Source: an uncultured Planctomycetaceae bacterium (lineage in GTDB: Bacteria; Planctomycetota; Planctomycetia; Planctomycetales; Planctomycetaceae). From it: a DNA stretch of 64,000 bases. The position numbers are program-made. Within the stretch, counting starts at the first letter, position 1, and every line of letters begins with the position of its first letter. Below are positions 28,401 to 37,400 of this stretch, piece after piece. The stretch covers positions 544,001 through 608,000 of the forward strand of contig CAWFGE010000012.1 of assembly GCA_963815195.1 (NCBI GenBank), in the 5' to 3' direction.

Positions 28401-31400
28401 CGACCCCTTGCCCGTGGGCCGATTGTGGGGCGTCGGCAAAGTGACCGGCAGCGTGTTCGACCGCTGGGGCATCACCACCATCGGCGAACTGCGGCGGCTC
28501 GATCCAAAGATCCTGCACCAACAGTTCGGCCAGCAGGGAGAGCATTTCGCCAAACTGGCGCGGGGACTCGATGACCGCTCGGTCGTTCCCGATCGCGAAG
28601 CCAAGTCGATTTCCCACGAGACGACATTTGCCGCGGACATCTCCAACCGCGAGGCCCTCCGAGCGTGGTTATTGGAGCTGACGGAACACGTAGCCCGGCG
28701 GATGCGGCAGCAACAGCGGCGCGGCCGGACCGTGAACCTCAAGCTCCGCTTCGCCAACTTTCGCACGATCACGCGGGCTAAGACCTTGCCCCGCAGCACA
28801 AACGTGACGCAGGAAATTTGGCAAGCGGCGAGCGAATTGTTAATGCGCCACCTGCCCGAGTCGCATGCGGGCATCCGATTGTTGGGCGTCGGCGTCAGCA
28901 ACTTTTCGGCGGGCGAGGCTGTGCAGAAATCCCTGTTTGCGGAGGAAACGCATCAAAAACAGCAGCAACTCGACGAAGTGGCCGATGCAGTGCGGGCCAA
29001 GTTCGGGAACACCGCGCTCAACCGCGGCAGCGGTTTGCTCCACAACGCCCGGCACCGCCCCGAGCCCAAACCGAACGAATAAAAAACTCCTGGAAAAGGC
29101 CGAGGAAACTTAAGAATTCGCCGAATCCTGAATCACCCCAGCGCATATATTGTTCTGTCGCCCAAAACCTGGCGAACCATTTCGCGGGTTGTGCGTCTAA
29201 CCCTTCACACGCCTCTAGTGTAATGGCAGCATGACTGGCTCCAACCCAGTTGGTCAGGGTTCAAATCCTTGGGGGCGTGCTGGCGAACGAACCTTCGCTC
29301 GCCAAATGGGCTCATCGTCCAACAGGAAGATGCCGGTGTCGCAAGCCGGAGATCCCGGTGCAATTCCGGGTGGGTCCACTCCTCAATACAGTCCTGTGGC
29401 CTAGCGGCGAAGGCAGCTCCCTTACAAGGAGACGAGCGGGGGTTCGAGTCCCTCCAGGACTACTCACCACGCCCAGATACCCCAACCGGCAGAGCGACTC
29501 GGCTTAAAACCGAGTGTTTGCAGGTTCGATTCCTGCTCTGGGTCGTGAAGACAAACTCGGCTCGGTAGGCAAATGGCAGACCACCTTGGCTTAGAACTAG
29601 GGATGCTGTGGGTTCGAGTCCCACCTGAGCCACTCAAACAAATACGCCCTCGTGGAGCAGCGGAGTGCTCGCCTGCCTGTCACGCAGGAGATCGTCGGTT
29701 CAAATCCGATCGGGGGTGCTGAAATGGCACGGTACGCAAATGGAAAAGCGGCGAAGCTCAAACCTTCGTGATTGTCTGTGGGTTCGACTCCCTCCCGTGC
29801 TACTCAAATGATGATGCGTCGGCTGGGCATTGGCGAGCCCAAGTGGCTGTAACCCACCCGCCTATCGCTGTGGCGGTTCGACTCCGTCCCGACGCACTCA
29901 AAAAGGCCCGTTCGTCTATCGGTTAAGGACACCAGCCTCTCACGCTGGAAAGATGGGTTCGATTCCCGTACGGGTCACTGACTTTGCAGGTGCGGCAGGT
30001 GCCCAATCGGCTTTCATAAGGCCGGTGTGCTCGGCTCGATACCGGGACCTGCAACTTATCCAACATTGACGCGGGTGAGCCAGTGCTCATTCAGGCCTCA
30101 TAAGCCAGAACAGCCGGGTGCGACTCCCGGACCCGCTACTTGTCCAGGCCGGGTACGCAAACCGGAAAAGCGGGCAGGTCGAGAACGTGCGATTCTGTGG
30201 GTTCGACTCCCACTCTGGTCACTCGAATGATCCCGTGGTCCAGTGGCGAAGACGCCTGGATGACACCCAGGAGATCGGTAGTTCGATTCTACCCGGGATC
30301 ACTTGCGACAACTGGTCTGTAGGTGTTGTGGCCGCACGCCGCTGTGGTAAGGCGGAAGACCGGGTTCAATCCCCGGACGGACCTCTCGACAAATGGGCCT
30401 GCATGCCGATGGAGGCGACTGATCCTTGCAAGATCGGTGGACCACCCCAAGGGGCGGTGCCCCGGTTCAACTCCGATCAGGTCCACTGAAGGAAACGGGC
30501 TGATGGTCCAAGGGGAAGACACCGCCCTGGCGTGGCGGAAATCCGAGTTCGACTCTCGGTCAGTCCACTCACATACGGAAGGTAACCGAATTGGCTTAGG
30601 AAACTGGGTGCTAACCAGTCGCCCTGGAACTGGGGTTGGATGGGTTCGATTCCCCCACCTTCCGCTTATGGCTCGATGGTGAAACGGACATCATGTCTCG
30701 CTTCTAACGAGATGTTCCAGGTTCAAATCCTGGTCGAGCTATTCCACATCACTGTGGAGGAAAAACTATCAACATGGTGTCCGTGGTGTATGCGGTAGGC
30801 ACGCCTGCCTGTGAAGCAGGAAGTGAGGGTTCAACTCCCTTCGGTCACCCTTCGACAACGTCATGCCGACGTGGCTCGACTAAGAAAGGCGCCGCTCTTG
30901 TAAAGCGGCTTATGCTGGTGCAAATCCAGTCGTCGGCTCTTTTTGGTTTTGGTGGCTGAAATGTCGATTCACCATTATTCGCTTACGCGGCGCTGAGCTA
31001 TGTTCTGTCATGTGATTGAAAAAGTCCCGATGGTGTAACGGACAACACGAGACTTTCCTAAAGTTTCGATCCTGGTTCGATTCCAGGTCGGGATACTCAA
31101 CAACTGGCCTTGCGAGTGTGAGGGACGCACGGCGGTCTTCGGAACCGCAAGACGGGGTTCGACTCCCTGGCGAGGTGCTTGCAGAAGCGGAGAGCCAAGG
31201 GCGGAGAGCACAGAGCCAAACCGATTATATACCAAGCGTTCCGGCTCTCAACTCTCCGCTGTTTTGTCCTTGGAGTGTGCCGGATTCGCACGCGAGCCCG
31301 CGAAGCTCGCAGACCAGGTTCAATTCCTGGCGAGGACATTTTCGATATGGACGCTGGAGCCGGATGGTGAGGCGGCTGCCTGCAAAGCAGCCAGAAGTGG

Positions 31401-34400: not shown

Positions 34401-37400
34401 GCCTCGTACCTCGCAGGCGACGCCGCCCGGTTCGTCGCCGAGGTGGAGTCGATCGAGCTGTAATGGCTCTGTTGAATGGAAACGCCCCTGGTCTGAGCGA
34501 TCGGACCCGGGGCGTTTTTCGTTCTGACAAGGAGTAAAAGGCCTTTTTTGACGGCCCTGGCGATTATTTCCAAAAATATTTCAGATATATTATTGACATG
34601 ACAATAGATTATATGTCAAGTTATTGCGAAGGAGGTGACTCAGAACCCATGGCGCGCAGCAGACTTCAAGATGAGCTGAAAAAGAAACGATCGTTCGATT
34701 CGCTGGAGCAGCCGGCGATTTTGAACATCCTGCGGACGAGCGATCAGTTTCAGAATCGTTTCGGGCGATTGTTTCGGGAATACGGTCTGACCTCATCCCA
34801 GTACAACGTGCTGCGAATCCTCCGGGGCGAAGGCCGGCCGATGCCTTGCCTGGAAATTGCCGAGCGGATGATACAAGTGGTTCCGGCCATGACGGGGCTC
34901 TTGGATCGGTTGGAGAAGCAGGGACTCGTGTCGCGGGAACGCTGCACGGAAGACCGCCGCGTGGTTTACGTGGACCTGACAAAGAAGGCGAAGGAATTGC
35001 TCAAGGAGATGGACGCTCCCGTGAGCGAACTCCACCACGAACTTGTCGGCCATCTCACGCGGGCGGAACTGAAAGAACTCAGCCGCCTGTTGGAAAAGGC
35101 GCGAACGGCTCTTGATGAAAGCCAAGGTTGATCTTTTTTTGGCCGTTTACATTATATGTAAACTGACTATATAAAATCTAATTAAAGAAAGGCGAAACGA
35201 TGAGCTTAAGGGGAAAAGTGGCTTTGGTGACAGGCGGAACGTCCGGCATTGGCAAGGAAACGGCACTTGAGCTTGCAAAGGCGGGGGCAAAGGTTGTCCT
35301 GGCGGGCCGCCGGGCGGAGGAGGGGAATGCCGTGGCGGCCGAGATCGCCTCGGCGGGCGGGGAGGCGATTTTCGTCGAAACCGACGTGACGAAAGAGGAT
35401 CAGGTCCGGCGCCTGGTGGAGGAAGCCGTCCGGCATTTTGGCCGTTTGGACATTGCCTTCAACAATGCCGGGGTCGAACAGACCGGACCGATCGCGGAGT
35501 TTACCGAACAGGACTACCGCAGGGTGTTTGACATCAACGTCCTCGGCGTGTTCCTCAGCTTGAAATACGAGATTCCCGCCATGCTCCAAACCGGGGGCGG
35601 CTCGATCATCAATACGTCGAGCATCCTCGGCCGCGTCGCCGTCCCGGGGGCCGGCATCTACAACGCCTCGAAGCACGCCGTGGAAGGCATCACCAAGACG
35701 GCCGCCCTCGAACTGGCGGGGCAAGGCATTCGGGTCAATGCCGTCGCTCCCGGTGCCGTCGCCACGGATATGATCGATCGTTTCGCCGGTGAAGAGGGCA
35801 GCGAACATCGGGAACAGCTCGCTTCGCAGCATCCGATGGGACGGCTCGGACATTCCCGGGAAATCGCCGCGGCCGTGCTCTATTTGGCGTCGGATGCCGC
35901 GTCGTTCACGACGGGGATGTCGCTGCCCGTCGATGGCGGGTACCTGGCGAAATAATCACACACAACAAACCGATTTCGAGGTGATGACATGATTCAAGTT
36001 CGCAAAGCGCACGAGCGCGGCCATGCCGACCACGGCTGGCTCGAGACGTACCACACATTTTCATTTTCAACCTACCACGACCCGAACCACATGCGGTTTC
36101 GGTCGCTACGGGTGATGAACGAGGACTTTGTCGCCCCGGGGCAAGGCTTCGGGACGCATCCCCATCATGACATGGAGATCGTCACGTACGTGCTCGAAGG
36201 GGCGCTCGAACACAAGGACTCGATGGGCCACGGCGAAGTCCTGCGGCCCGGAGAGTTTCAGCGAATGTCCGCGGGAACCGGAATCACGCACAGCGAATTC
36301 AACCCTTCCCCCACCGAGCCGGTTCATCTCTACCAGATTTGGCTGTTTCCCGAACGCAAAGGGATCGAGCCCAGTTACGAGCAGAAGCGATTTCCCGAGG
36401 AACAGCGGCACAATCGGCTGCAGCTGGTGGCTTCTCGGGAGGGAGTTGACGGCTCATTGCTCATCCACCAGGATGCCCGCATCTATTTGTCGAGCCTTGA
36501 TGAAGGCCGGGCCGTTTCCCACGAACTTTCGCCGGGCCGGCACGCGTGGCTGCAAGTGCTCCGAGGCGATGTTTCCCTCAATGGCCTCGAACTTATGACA
36601 GGCGACGCCGCCGGCGTCAGCGGCGAAAGCACGCTGGAGATCCTGGCGAACCGGCCGGCCGAGATCATGCTCTTCGATCTGAATTAGACCCGGGTCTTGC
36701 GGTTTTTCGTGTGCATGATTCTATTCCTTCTGCACAATCTCCGAAGGGGAGGTAAGATCCGTGGTTGATCATCACACAAAAAGATCATCAGCGTCCGCCC
36801 CCGATTCGCCGGAAGACCCCCTTTTCTCATGTTGTCACCTATCCAGGGGATCGCTATGATGCGAAACGGGGACGGAATCTGTTTCGATCAACGGCAGTCG
36901 TAAAGGAGGCACGTCAGTTCCTATGCGAATCGGATTGGGACACGATGTGCACCGGCTGGTCGAGGGCCGCACGCTGGTTTTGGGCGGCGTGGCGATTGAA
37001 TACCACCTGGGGCCCGACGGACACAGCGATGGCGATGTGCTTTTGCATGCCCTGACCGATGCCGTGTTGGGAGCCGCCGGCCTGGGCGACATCGGCACGT
37101 GGTTCCCGGACACCGACCCGAAGTGGAAAGATGCCGATTCCGCGCAGTTTCTCGAAGCCGCGGTCGCGCTGGTTCGCGAACGGGGCTGGAGAATTGGCAA
37201 TGTCGATTGCACAATTTTCGCCGAACAGCCGAAACTGAAAGAAGATAAACCCAGAATTCGCGGCCGGGTGGCGGAGATTCTGGGCATAAGCGCGGACGCG
37301 GTGAACATCAAAGCCAAGACCGGCGAGAAGGTCGGCCCCATCGGCCGCGGAGAAGCCATCGCCGCCGACGCCGTGGTTTTGTTGTTGCCTATGACATCAG

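What a model noticed while it worked through the whole genome (the two positions that open the first line are those of the whole stretch)
29209..34463. Ro60 (Rsr) with a tandem set of divergent YrlA-type Y RNAs docked at the 3' end of the 24-gene tRNA array
The largest of this genome's three degenerate tRNA arrays (24 tRNA genes, C12:573209-575422, + strand) runs directly into a 1.4-kb spacer that holds three strong and up to three weak YrlA-like Y RNA genes (575808-575952, 576471-576627, 576636-576764; weak 575425-575807), followed by the Ro60 orthologue rsr (g02577, TROVE+vWA, 576853-578463), all on one strand. These Y RNAs fall below Rfam's YrlA cut-off and are unannotated; the order tRNA array - Y RNA(s) - rsr is conserved in other families of Planctomycetia, so the Ro60 RNP of this class is genetically tied to the accessory tRNA array.
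Evidence so far: ARAGORN finds 24 tRNAs. Rfam YrlA gives only 31.9 bits (cut 69) here, but a sub-threshold YrlA hit (29-53 bits) lies between the tRNAs and rsr, on rsr's strand, in 14 of 15 Ro60 loci scanned (G000 and 13 of 14 loci of other Planctomycetia genomes; none in L026). 19 such sequences align with a basal stem plus T-arm, acceptor-like stem and D-arm; 20 of 30 predicted pairs keep pairing through changes on both sides. A covariance model of them (R1, call 61) finds in G000 three hits of 127, 69 and 54 bits, all in the spacer before rsr, and three weaker (26-32 bits) tandem ones there; the other five hits (24-36 bits) lie on tRNA genes. ARAGORN finds tRNA genes within 1.5 kb upstream of rsr, same st [...]
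(Added by a program. Inside this text positions count along the whole contig: contig position 544,001 is position 1 of the stretch shown here. "Call 12" and the like, gene names such as g00115 and contig names such as C1 are that model's own, and its searches are not shown. The text may have been shortened before it was handed on; [...] marks where a part breaks off. The agent that wrote the report below was given it as the finding of a first reader that could run no searches.)

Follow-up and report, generated by a model that had tools for sequence, protein, structure and literature searches.

The report
tRNA array, seven Y RNAs, Ro60
A block of spare tRNA genes runs into seven different small Y RNA genes and then the gene for their partner protein Ro60; this order is kept across many planctomycetes, and one of the Y RNAs copies a piece of the large ribosomal RNA instead of a tRNA.

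Summary
On one strand lie a supernumerary tRNA array (21 genes by ARAGORN default, 24 only at a relaxed threshold), a 1.4-kb spacer, and rsr (TROVE + vWA).

The spacer holds seven units, not three to six. All share a 5' ACUGCC-N4-5-GGANU motif and a 3' CUUCGUYG motif, which pair into a covarying two-helix stem. The interiors differ:
- U4 is a YrlA-type tRNA mimic (T arm, acceptor-like stem, D arm).
- U3, U5 and U6 are T-arm variants.
- U1 is a bare hairpin and U7 a truncated unit.
- U2 carries 21 bases identical to the genome's own 23S rRNA (helix 69 3' strand and the H69-H71 junction).

In 55 related Rsr loci with at least 2.5 kb upstream:
- 55 have such units on the rsr strand.
- 43 have same-strand tRNA genes upstream and 24 have ten or more, in a conserved anticodon order.
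- 29 have the 23S-like unit.

Y RNAs beside rsr in Planctomycetes, up to three in tandem, are already in Chen et al. 2014 Table S1. This scan has also noted tandem Y arrays in other genomes.

I did not find in print the coupling to the tRNA array, the 23S-like unit, or a last unit set at a fixed 22-32 nt before the rsr start codon. No expression data were available.

The parts
29209..31422 (+). Supernumerary tRNA array (L-array type). ARAGORN at default finds 21 genes, from Trp-cca to Cys-gca. Likely extra members are Ala-cgc at 29308-29379 and Met-cat at 29985-30055.
   Evidence: Searches give the genes. The genome has 97 tRNA genes by ARAGORN, and the ones outside the three arrays form a near-complete set of their own; only Arg-gcg and Ile-tat occur solely in arrays. 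Array tRNAs are a median 60% identical to the same-anticodon tRNA elsewhere in the genome.
31428..31492 (+). U1: mini Y unit, made of the shared stem plus a small apical hairpin, with no tRNA-like part.
   Evidence: 5' motif at 31433 and 3' motif at 31482. It belongs to the mini class, 78 of 339 distinct units across loci.
31504..31683 (+). U2: Y unit whose interior copies 23S rRNA (helix 69 3' strand, the CUAAGGUAGCGA junction, an H71-like GNRA hairpin, and GAAUGGCG).
   Evidence: 21-nt exact match to the genome's own 23S gene, which maps to LSU model positions about 1944-1964. Sixteen homologues align with 44 predicted pairs, 28 of them with compensatory changes. The 5' half against the 23S scores z 7.8-19.3 in 16 of 16.
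31688..31806 (+). U3: Y unit with two small hairpins and a T-arm-like hairpin (GGGUUCGAUUCCC).
   Evidence: Orthologous 'cggcg...ccacc' units are present in L011 and L018.
31808..31952 (+). U4: canonical YrlA-type unit, with basal stem, T arm, acceptor-like stem and D arm.
   Evidence: Rfam YrlA scores 31.9 bits, below the cut-off of 69. Thirty homologues give 30 predicted pairs, 14 with compensatory changes, resolving all four helices.
32094..32462 (+). Conserved 122-aa protein gene embedded in the Y array. The predicted fold is a small beta-barrel plus a C-terminal helix and a basic tail; function unknown.
   Evidence: 223 homologues at E<=0.001, all unnamed or 'hypothetical', with no Pfam or NCBIfam hit. 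The gene sits inside the Y array in 10 other loci over most of its length (109-123 aligned residues), with partial matches of 42-46 residues in 2 more. The AF2 model has pLDDT 73; the best fold matches reach Z<=6.6 and are not decisive.
32471..32627 (+). U5: Y unit with a T arm, an acceptor-like stem and a variant D-arm-like hairpin (GGCGGAGCGGCCAAACGC).
   Evidence: A similar unit occurs at L052 -2427.
32636..32764 (+). U6: Y unit with a T arm and a long hairpin but no D arm. Its basal stem is followed by a run of seven U at 32760-32766.
   Evidence: single-sequence fold z -4.6. The 'actcg...agtg' class is conserved in many loci.
32775..32822 (+). U7: truncated proximal unit. It keeps the 5' motif and the 3' motif but lacks the 3' strand of the second helix. 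It ends 39 nt before the rsr ATG.
   Evidence: The closest relatives (L054, L011) have an intact 53-nt version that ends 26 nt before the ATG.
32853..34463 (+). rsr, the Ro60 orthologue (536 aa).
   Evidence: Pfam TROVE and vWA_Ro60. NCBIfam RNA-bind_Rsr scores 88 bits, far below its equivalog cut-off of 900. A homologue was found in 42 of 201 Planctomycetia genomes sampled.

Best explanation
The locus is one same-strand unit: a horizontally spreading type of spare-tRNA array, then an array of seven modular Y RNA genes, then rsr.

Each Y unit folds into the same two-helix stem:
- Helix 1 is nnnnR-AC paired with GU-Y-nnnn.
- An internal loop carries 5' UGCC and 3' CYUC.
- Helix 2 is N4-5-GGAG paired with CUCU-N.

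This stem is the planctomycete form of the Ro60-binding module; its 5' strand corresponds to the GNCGAAN0-1G motif of YrlA. Into this handle different cargo domains are plugged:
- a circularly permuted tRNA (U4, and U5 in variant form);
- T-arm-only forms (U3, U6);
- nothing (U1);
- a miniature of the 23S rRNA domain IV junction around helices 69-71 (U2).

Shown:
- the motifs and their restriction to rsr upstream regions;
- covariation of the stem and of the cargo helices;
- the sequence identity of U2 to the 23S;
- conservation of the order tRNA array - Y units - rsr.

Inferred:
- The RNAs are made, probably from long transcripts that are cut or terminated at the U-runs after the basal stems.
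- They bind Rsr.
- Their cargo domains bring tRNA-binding and 23S-binding factors to Ro60, or compete for those factors.
- The whole block acts as a translation-stress module, supplying spare tRNAs together with a Ro60 surveillance and decay particle. This is by analogy with the stress-induced Anabaena L-array and with the Salmonella rsr-yrlBA-rtcBA operon.
- In most relatives the last unit doubles as the rsr leader: its stem, a U-run and a strong Shine-Dalgarno sequence sit at a fixed distance from the AUG. This could let Ro60 binding, or termination at that point, set rsr expression.
For: Restriction to rsr upstream regions:
- Seven of the 12 genome-wide matches to the paired motif lie in this 1.4-kb spacer.
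- No motif match lies on the opposite strand in any of the 43 loci (42 fetched loci plus this window).
- None occurs downstream of this genome's other two arrays.

Stem covariation over 339 distinct units:
- Helix-1 positions 1-6 form canonical pairs in 99, 99, 98, 93, 84 and 75% of units. Shuffled partners give 82, 92, 67, 40, 53 and 39%. Several pair types occur at each position.
- Cognate helix-2 strands pair at a mean of -10.8 kcal/mol, against -7.5 for non-cognate combinations.

Cargo domains:
- YrlA-type architecture with compensatory changes in the basal stem, T arm and acceptor-like stem, and a D-arm helix that hardly varies, in 30 sequences.
- Rfam YrlA hits of 34-48.5 bits in 7 of 7 loci scanned.
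- U2 class: a 21-29-nt identity to the 23S; the matched stretch includes the lineage-specific G in AUGACGG, where the LSU model consensus reads AUAACGG; 28 of 44 predicted pairs carry compensatory changes. The class is discrete: 114-182 bits for its members against at most 44 bits for other units. It is present in 29 of 55 loci.

Coupling to tRNA genes.

Leader: a unit's 3' motif ends 22-32 nt before the ATG in 57 of 109 distinct leaders, followed by a U-run and GGAGG.

From papers:
- Ro60-Y RNA-PNPase function and YrlA features, from Chen et al. 2014 (PMC4201824: abstract, sections 5, 6 and 10).
- L-arrays exist in Planctomycetes, are induced by translational stress, and are co-regulated with rtcB, from Santamaria-Gomez et al. 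2021 (PMC8421152: passages).
Against: - There are no expression, end-mapping or binding data of any kind.
- No promoter or terminator stood out in the consensus scan.
- U4 misses the Rfam gathering score (31.9 against 69). Its 5' motif is GCCGAAUUG, one base longer than GNCGAAN0-1G.
- The single-sequence minimum-energy folds of U1 and U7 did not show the basal stem, those of the other five units showed only helix 1 of the shared stem, and z-scores were modest, -1.0 to -4.6.
- The second 23S-like segment of U2 (ACGGACGGCCG) is not significant on its own in most sequences: z is above 3 in only 2 of 16. The helix-69-like long-range helix has few compensatory changes, so its support is mostly conservation.
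- U7 in this genome is truncated, so the leader idea rests on relatives.
- 12 of 55 loci have no tRNA gene within 7 kb upstream, so the link to the array is frequent but not obligatory.
- Units from related genomes are not independent, so the shuffle and rank tests overstate significance.
Confidence: 0.8

Rival explanations
1. The units are decayed tRNA genes or tRNA dimers at the ragged end of the array: the T arm of one pseudo-tRNA plus the D arm of the next. They would not be Y RNAs.
For: Interior segments of many units match tRNA genes of this genome over 17-28 nt. ARAGORN-type and tmRNA-type models pick up their T arms. Chen et al. 2014 warn that tandem tRNAs can mimic YrlA.
Against: - Mini units (78 of 339) and 23S-type units (28 of 339) have no tRNA part, yet carry the same stem motifs.
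- The stem covaries.
- The motifs are absent after this genome's other two arrays.
- The motifs are present in 55 of 55 rsr loci, including the 12 with no tRNA gene nearby.
Confidence: 0.04
2. The units are not separate small RNAs. They are structured parts of one long rsr leader, acting only in cis as processing, stability or attenuation elements.
For: All units are on the rsr strand with short spacers. The last unit sits at a fixed 22-32 nt from the ATG in 57 of 109 leaders, followed by a U-run and a Shine-Dalgarno sequence. No internal promoters were found.
Against: Homologous YrlA RNAs of Salmonella and M. smegmatis are discrete, Rsr-bound RNAs (Chen et al. 2014, sections 5-6 and 10). A conserved protein gene sits between units in at least 10 loci. 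In some loci the units lie up to 2-3 kb from rsr. The two readings can both hold, with the last unit acting in cis.
Confidence: 0.1
3. The 23S-like stretch in U2 is a relic of a captured rRNA fragment, or a generic stable RNA building block, with no role as an rRNA mimic.
For: - Only about 21-30 nt are clearly 23S-like.
- Helices 69 and 71 have lost the loops that make inter-subunit contacts.
- The covariance model of the class does not hit the 23S gene.
- The class is missing in 26 of 55 loci.
Against: - The stretch is the most conserved part of the unit across genera, while the rest diverges: invariant columns C34-C44 in 16 sequences.
- The flanking helices keep the positions of helix 69's stem and of helix 71, and the helix-71-like hairpin covaries.
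- Two lineages retain the whole helix 69 loop sequence (G077 and G105).
Confidence: 0.3
4. The tRNA array and rsr are neighbours only because both ride on one mobile island. They have no functional tie.
For: L-arrays spread by horizontal transfer (PMC8421152, abstract passage). Flanking protein genes are not conserved between loci. Rsr occurs in only 42 of 201 Planctomycetia genomes sampled. Large phages also carry Ro60 genes among tRNA genes.
Against: The strict same-strand order, the spacing of a few bases (the array ends 7 nt before U1) and retention across several families argue for selection on the arrangement. Co-mobility and co-function are not exclusive.
Confidence: 0.2

Closest known systems
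YrlA and YrlB of the Salmonella Typhimurium rsr-yrlBA-rtcBA operon, and the YrlA homologues of Chen et al. 2014 (Rfam RF02553). That set includes 8 Planctomycetes in their Table S1.
   Same: - Encoded within 4 kb of rsr on the same strand.
- A 5' Ro60-binding motif.
- A tRNA-like domain in the order T arm, acceptor-like stem, D arm (U4).
- Several copies per locus; Table S1 lists up to three for Rhodopirellula baltica SH1.
   Different: - Seven units with at least five kinds of interior.
- Both strands of the handle are conserved and covary.
- The units score below the Rfam cut-off.
- There is no rtcBA next to rsr here.
- The units are directly fused to a tRNA array, whereas Chen et al. discarded hits overlapping tandem tRNAs.
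[quoted passage not shown] 2015 and Santamaria-Gomez et al. 2021.
   Same: - At least 20 tRNA genes at far more than 2 per kb.
- Supernumerary and divergent from the housekeeping set.
- Patchy distribution.
- Neighbourhoods rich in RNA-processing genes.
- Reported to occur in Planctomycetes.
   Different: The words Ro60, TROVE and Y RNA occur in the main text of neither paper, and Rsr, searched only in PMC8421152, does not occur there. Here the array has a conserved order of about 40 genes that ends in Arg-tcg, Arg-gcg, Cys-gca and then runs into Y RNAs and rsr.
Deinococcus radiodurans Yrn1-Rsr-PNPase particle.
   Same: A Y RNA with a Ro60-binding helix in which both strands are recognisable, and a link to rRNA maturation and decay (Chen et al. 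2014, abstract and section 10).
   Different: No PNPase-binding module can be recognised here, and the cargo domains differ. The mechanism is carried over by analogy only.
rRNA mimics in ribosomal-protein operon leaders (classical autoregulation; named from general knowledge).
   Same: A short copy of an rRNA protein-binding site is placed in another RNA so that the same factor binds it. A structured element is placed just before a Shine-Dalgarno sequence.
   Different: U2 is embedded in a Ro60-type handle, not in a ribosomal-protein mRNA. The factor that would bind it is unknown.
Ro60 genes of large phages (Myxococcus phage Mx1; Bxz1-like mycobacteriophages).
   Same: Ro60 lies on the same strand as, and among, phage tRNA genes. 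In Mx1 it also lies with a peptidyl-tRNA hydrolase and an HNH endonuclease. The Mx1 protein is 41% identical to this Rsr.
   Different: The phage tRNA genes are scattered between ORFs, not a tight array abutting Y units. I did not search these phage loci for the planctomycete stem motifs.

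Membership tests
YrlA-type bacterial Y RNA (Chen et al. 2014; Rfam RF02553) | Encoded within 4 kb of the Ro60 orthologue on the same strand | tested here: met
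   All seven units lie 31-1425 nt upstream of rsr on the + strand.
YrlA-type bacterial Y RNA (Chen et al. 2014; Rfam RF02553) | 5' motif GNCGAAN0-1G (the likely Rsr contact) | tested here: inconclusive
   U4 reads GCCGAAUUG, with two bases instead of 0-1 before the G. The other units read GCCGGNNNGG. Some relatives fit exactly, for example ACTGCCGAATGGGAG at L012 -362. The local consensus is ACUGCC-N4-5-GGANU.
YrlA-type bacterial Y RNA (Chen et al. 2014; Rfam RF02553) | tRNA-like domain: T arm, then acceptor-like stem, then D arm, closed by a basal stem | tested here: met
   U4 and 29 homologues give 30 predicted pairs, 14 with compensatory changes, resolving all four helices. U5 has a variant D arm. 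U3 and U6 have only the T arm. U1, U2 and U7 have none.
YrlA-type bacterial Y RNA (Chen et al. 2014; Rfam RF02553) | Score at or above the Rfam gathering threshold (69 bits) | tested here: not met
   31.9 bits for U4, and the other units are not hit. Seven related loci give 34-48.5 bits. The second model of Chen et al. did accept planctomycete sequences, at E 1e-9 to 2e-14 for the best hits.
YrlA-type bacterial Y RNA (Chen et al. 2014; Rfam RF02553) | Expressed as a discrete RNA bound by Rsr | not testable with these tools
   No RNA run was listed for this sequence.
tRNA array unit / L-array | At least 20 tRNA genes at a density of at least 2 per kb (definition in the abstract of Tran et al. 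2015, seen in the listing) | tested here: met
   21 genes in 2.2 kb.
tRNA array unit / L-array | Supernumerary genes that duplicate the housekeeping set | tested here: met
   The tRNA genes outside the three arrays form a near-complete set of their own; only 2 array anticodons are unique to arrays. Median identity to the housekeeping counterparts is 60%.
tRNA array unit / L-array | Silent in growth and induced by translational stress (Anabaena case) | not testable with these tools
   No expression data.
Ro60 / Rsr | TROVE (HEAT-repeat ring) domain plus a C-terminal vWA domain | tested here: met
   Pfam PF05731 and PF25045, both above their cut-offs.
23S rRNA domain IV (H69-H71) mimic | Same-sense sequence identity to the 23S segment beyond chance | tested here: met
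   21 nt are identical to the genome's own 23S gene. z is 7.8-19.3 against shuffles in 16 of 16 homologues.
23S rRNA domain IV (H69-H71) mimic | Equivalent helices at equivalent places (H69 stem, H71 hairpin) | tested here: inconclusive
   The H71-position hairpin covaries. The CGGUC/GGCCG helix has the letters of H69's stem but only 2 of its 5 pairs show compensatory changes. The 3' segment is not significant by sequence in most homologues. No 3D test was possible.

The most novel reading that the evidence does not exclude
Planctomycete Ro60 particles are programmed by a cassette of interchangeable Y RNAs that imitate both kinds of stable RNA of the translation machinery.

The U2 class would be the first rRNA-mimicking Y RNA. 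It is a miniature of the 23S subunit-interface junction (H69-H71), next to the place where RNase E starts 23S decay in E. coli (after residue 1942; PMC4931109, passages). The mapping of that residue onto this sequence rests on recalled E. coli numbering.

This class would steer Ro60 to factors that act on exposed 50S interfaces, or compete for them. The co-transcribed spare tRNA set would refill the tRNA pool. The whole block would then be one stress operon, feedback-controlled through its last Y unit.
Probability: 0.25. Interest if true: 0.85.

Novelty: new variant of a known kind. Interest (0 to 1): 0.6.

Why it matters
Two open questions become testable in one locus.

First, what are long accessory tRNA arrays for? 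Here a conserved-order array is welded to the Ro60/Y RNA quality-control system in many planctomycetes. This points to a shared role in surviving damage to the translation apparatus.

Second, what do the cargo domains of bacterial Y RNAs do? A unit that copies a 23S rRNA junction instead of a tRNA suggests the cargo is chosen to resemble the RNAs that Ro60 particles police. It also offers a defined bait for finding the partner proteins.

For annotation, standard models miss six of the seven units here.

Tried and rejected
- Expression: no RNA holder was listed for 31400-33400, so reads were never laid.
- Single-sequence folding showed no basal stem in U1 and U7 and only helix 1 in the others; z was -1.0 to -4.6. 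The structure rests on comparison between sequences.
- The promoter and terminator consensus scan gave nothing above shuffles on the + strand. Long-range stems followed by U-runs are outside its terminator definition.
- My first motif pattern was mis-written and matched nothing; it was corrected.
- The phylum-wide pattern was mis-specified and missed this window's own U2. It says nothing about distribution outside the class, and I did not repeat it.
- The class-C covariance model R1 does not hit the 23S gene or any of the 9 loci of the distant Rsr clade.
- BLAST of unit interiors against the genome found only tRNA genes and the 23S; there were no 16S or 5S hits among the 25 most-hit places that I read.
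- The other two arrays of this genome, and a four-tRNA cluster, have no Y motif in the 4 kb after them.
- The decayed second rsr copy on contig C10 has no units or tRNA genes near it.
- Flanking protein genes are not conserved across loci.
- Fold searches for the 122-aa protein: Foldseek found no match at E<=0.001, and its top rows are uL2 and SH3-like barrels at E about 0.1. VIA-align gave Z<=6.6 for RimP, KOW and Tudor type barrels, within the range of unrelated matches.
- Literature: searches found no paper describing an rRNA-like Y RNA, and no listed paper joined 'tRNA array' with Ro60, TROVE, Rsr or Y RNA (15 of 435 papers listed). Subscription-only papers are not covered.

Full report
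**What is there**

ARAGORN finds 21 tRNA genes at 29209-31422, all on the + strand. Rfam adds a tRNA at 29308-29378 (44 bits) and a tRNA-like match at 30072-30134.

The ORF 32790-34463, whose ATG is at 32853, carries Pfam TROVE and vWA_Ro60 domains. It is the Ro60 orthologue rsr. Rfam YrlA matches 31834-31935 at 31.9 bits, under the cut-off of 69.

**The spacer holds seven units with one shared handle**

Reading the spacer showed a repeated 5' word, ACTGCY-N4-5-GGANT, and a repeated 3' word, YTCGTYG.
- The 5' word occurs 8 times in the window, 7 of them in the spacer. The expected number is 0.32, and 0 of 100 shuffles reach 8.
- The paired pattern occurs 12 times in the 8.87-Mb genome, 7 of them here. 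The reversed-pattern control gives 2.

The seven units are:

| Unit | Coordinates |
|---|---|
| U1 | 31428-31492 |
| U2 | 31504-31683 |
| U3 | 31688-31806 |
| U4 | 31808-31952 |
| U5 | 32471-32627 |
| U6 | 32636-32764 |
| U7 | 32775-32822 |

Its 'weak' zone is U1-U3.

**Relatives**

A search with Rsr found a homologue in 42 of 201 Planctomycetia genomes sampled. I fetched 42 loci from these.

Among 33 loci whose Rsr is at least 57% identical, or a fragment of such a gene:
- 32 have the 5' word upstream of rsr, with 1 to 7 copies.
- No copy lies on the opposite strand.
- 25 have at least one same-strand tRNA gene within 6 kb, and 12 have at least five.

The 9 loci of a 43-47% identical Rsr clade have no such word, and only 1 has a tRNA gene.

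A second scan, which partly overlaps the first, gave 80 named loci, all Planctomycetota. I analysed 75 of them and dropped 5 whose match did not start at the first residues of Rsr. Of the 55 with at least 2.5 kb upstream:
- 55 have the word on the rsr strand.
- 43 have at least 1 same-strand tRNA gene upstream, 32 at least 5, and 24 at least 10; the maximum is 40.
- Random positions in this genome give 2.1%, 0.16% and 0.08%.

The anticodon order of the arrays is conserved. One locus shares 20 of this window's 21 genes in order. A 40-gene array in another locus ends with the same series Arg-cct, Arg-tcg, Arg-gcg, Cys-gca. This genome's two other arrays look like pieces of the first half of that order.

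The flanking protein genes are not conserved.

**Structure of the handle**

In 339 distinct units (372 found), I paired the bases flanking AC...GU position by position. They form canonical pairs in 99, 99, 98, 93, 84 and 75% of units. Shuffled partners give 82, 92, 67, 40, 53 and 39%. Up to five pair types occur per position. One caveat: where several 3' words were available, I chose the best-pairing one.

The second helix is N4-5+GGAG paired with CUCU+N. It is more stable for cognate strands than for strands taken from different units: a mean of -10.8 against -7.5 kcal/mol.

The units are related to one another, so these tests overstate independence.

The 5' strand overlaps the GNCGAAN0-1G motif that Chen et al. 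2014 propose as the Rsr contact (section 6). U4 reads GCCGAAUUG.

**Interiors**

*U4.* U4 and 29 homologues fold into a basal stem, a 3-bp closing helix, a T arm, an acceptor-like stem and a D arm. This gives 30 predicted pairs, 14 with compensatory changes. That is the YrlA architecture. Rfam YrlA hits of 34-48.5 bits occur in 7 of 7 related loci scanned.

*Classes.* Across all units a rough regular-expression sort gave these classes:
- T arm plus D arm: 69
- T arm only: 117
- 80 nt or shorter: 78
- 23S-type: 28
- other: 47

*U2 and the 23S rRNA.*
- U2 has a 21-nt exact match to one place in the genome. That place is the 23S rRNA gene, at LSU model positions of about 1944-1964: the 3' strand of helix 69 and the CUAAGGUAGCGA junction.
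- In the first set of 43 loci, 16 have such a unit, always upstream of rsr and on its strand.
- The 16 align with 44 predicted pairs, 28 of them with compensatory changes.
- After the junction, a 5-bp GNRA hairpin stands where helix 71 stands in the 23S, and GAAUGGCG follows as in the 23S.
- CGGUC pairs with a distant GGCCG. These are the letters of the two strands of helix 69's stem, so helix 69 appears opened at its loop and joined to the Y handle, much as YrlA is a tRNA opened at the anticodon end.
- The 5' half scores z 7.8-19.3 against the 23S in 16 of 16 sequences. The 3' half is significant in only 2 of 16, and the helix-69-like helix shows few compensatory changes. The fold equivalence is therefore a proposal, not a result.
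- A covariance model of the class separates its 16 members (114-182 bits) from all other units (15-44 bits). It does not hit the 23S gene.

**Other parts**

*The embedded gene.* A 122-aa gene (32094-32462) lies between U4 and U5.
- It has 223 homologues, none of them named, and no Pfam or NCBIfam family.
- It sits inside the Y array in 10 other loci over most of its length, with partial matches in 2 more.
- Its AF2 model (pLDDT 73) is a small beta-barrel with a C-terminal helix. Fold matches are weak.

*The rsr leader.* In 57 of 109 distinct rsr leaders a unit's 3' word ends 22-32 nt before the ATG and is followed by a U-run and GGAGG. In this genome the proximal unit U7 is truncated.

*The array tRNAs.* They are a median 60% identical to the housekeeping tRNA with the same anticodon. 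The four tRNA-Leu genes are only 74-78 nt long.

**What is known**

- Chen et al. 2014 report YrlA RNAs near rsr in 254 bacterial species (section 5). Table S1 lists 8 Planctomycetes, with up to three copies 482-1228 nt from rsr in Rhodopirellula baltica SH1. They discarded hits overlapping tandem tRNA genes.
- Earlier notes of this scan report tandem, modular Y arrays next to rsr in other genomes and call them usual. None mentions a 23S-like unit.
- Long tRNA arrays are known in Planctomycetes. In Anabaena they are induced by translational stress together with rtcB (PMC8421152, passages; PMC4758250, one passage). Ro60, TROVE and Y RNA do not occur in the main text of either paper, and Rsr, searched only in PMC8421152, does not occur there.
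- Searches found no rRNA-like Y RNA, and no listed paper (15 of 435 listed) joined 'tRNA array' with the Ro60 terms.
- Large phages carry Ro60 among scattered tRNA genes.

**Verdict**

It belongs to a known kind (Ro60 with Y RNAs), with three aspects I did not find described:
- the conserved fusion to an ordered accessory tRNA array;
- a Y unit with a 23S rRNA-like interior;
- a last unit placed at a fixed distance before the rsr start.

All functional statements are inference, because no RNA data could be obtained.

Noticed in passing
G000:C10:430116-431348 (- strand; outside the window): A second, decayed rsr copy. It is 81% identical to residues 31-442 of this Rsr and has 3 in-frame TGA stops. 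It has no Y units or tRNA genes nearby.
   Followed up: partly
window 29471-29544, 29559-29633, 29726-29803, 30147-30222: The four array tRNA-Leu genes are only 74-78 nt long, so they lack the long variable arm expected of tRNA-Leu (expectation from general knowledge). They are 60-62% identical to the housekeeping tRNA-Leu genes.
   Followed up: partly
window 30395-30486: The array tRNA-Ala(tgc) is called at 92 nt, about 18 nt longer than usual. It may carry an insert or an intron-like stretch. The Rfam tRNA model did not report it at E<=1.
   Followed up: no
window 32760-32766, and the equivalent places in L011-L133: Many units have a run of U directly after the 3' strand of the basal stem; seven U follow U6. 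This resembles an intrinsic terminator whose 'hairpin' is the whole Y RNA.
   Followed up: partly
window 32811-32831: The 3' word of U7 (GUCGAG) can pair either with U7's own 5' strand or with a downstream CUCGAC, forming the hairpin GUCGAG-UUCGUG-CUCGAC just before the Shine-Dalgarno region. This is a possible two-state leader.
   Followed up: no
window 27385-29082: The gene upstream of the array is a Y-family DNA polymerase (IMS domains) with an N-terminal extension of about 170 residues. It is not conserved next to the array in other loci.
   Followed up: partly
L134 (Myxococcus phage Mx1, 50915-64561): The closest phage Ro60 (41% identical) sits among same-strand tRNA genes, a peptidyl-tRNA hydrolase gene and an HNH endonuclease gene. 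I did not search this locus for Y units.
   Followed up: no
L132:7001-8665; L043 (G065) and L052 (G113): Several relatives have broken rsr genes yet keep Y units upstream. L132 has 3 stops, and the genes in G065 and G113 are split into 2 and 4 matched pieces.
   Followed up: no
L098 (contig labelled Candidatus Kuenenia stuttgartiensis MAG): This short contig carries the Pirellulales-type tRNA - Y unit - rsr block (8 tRNA genes, 5 units). The taxonomic label of the bin may not fit this contig.
   Followed up: no
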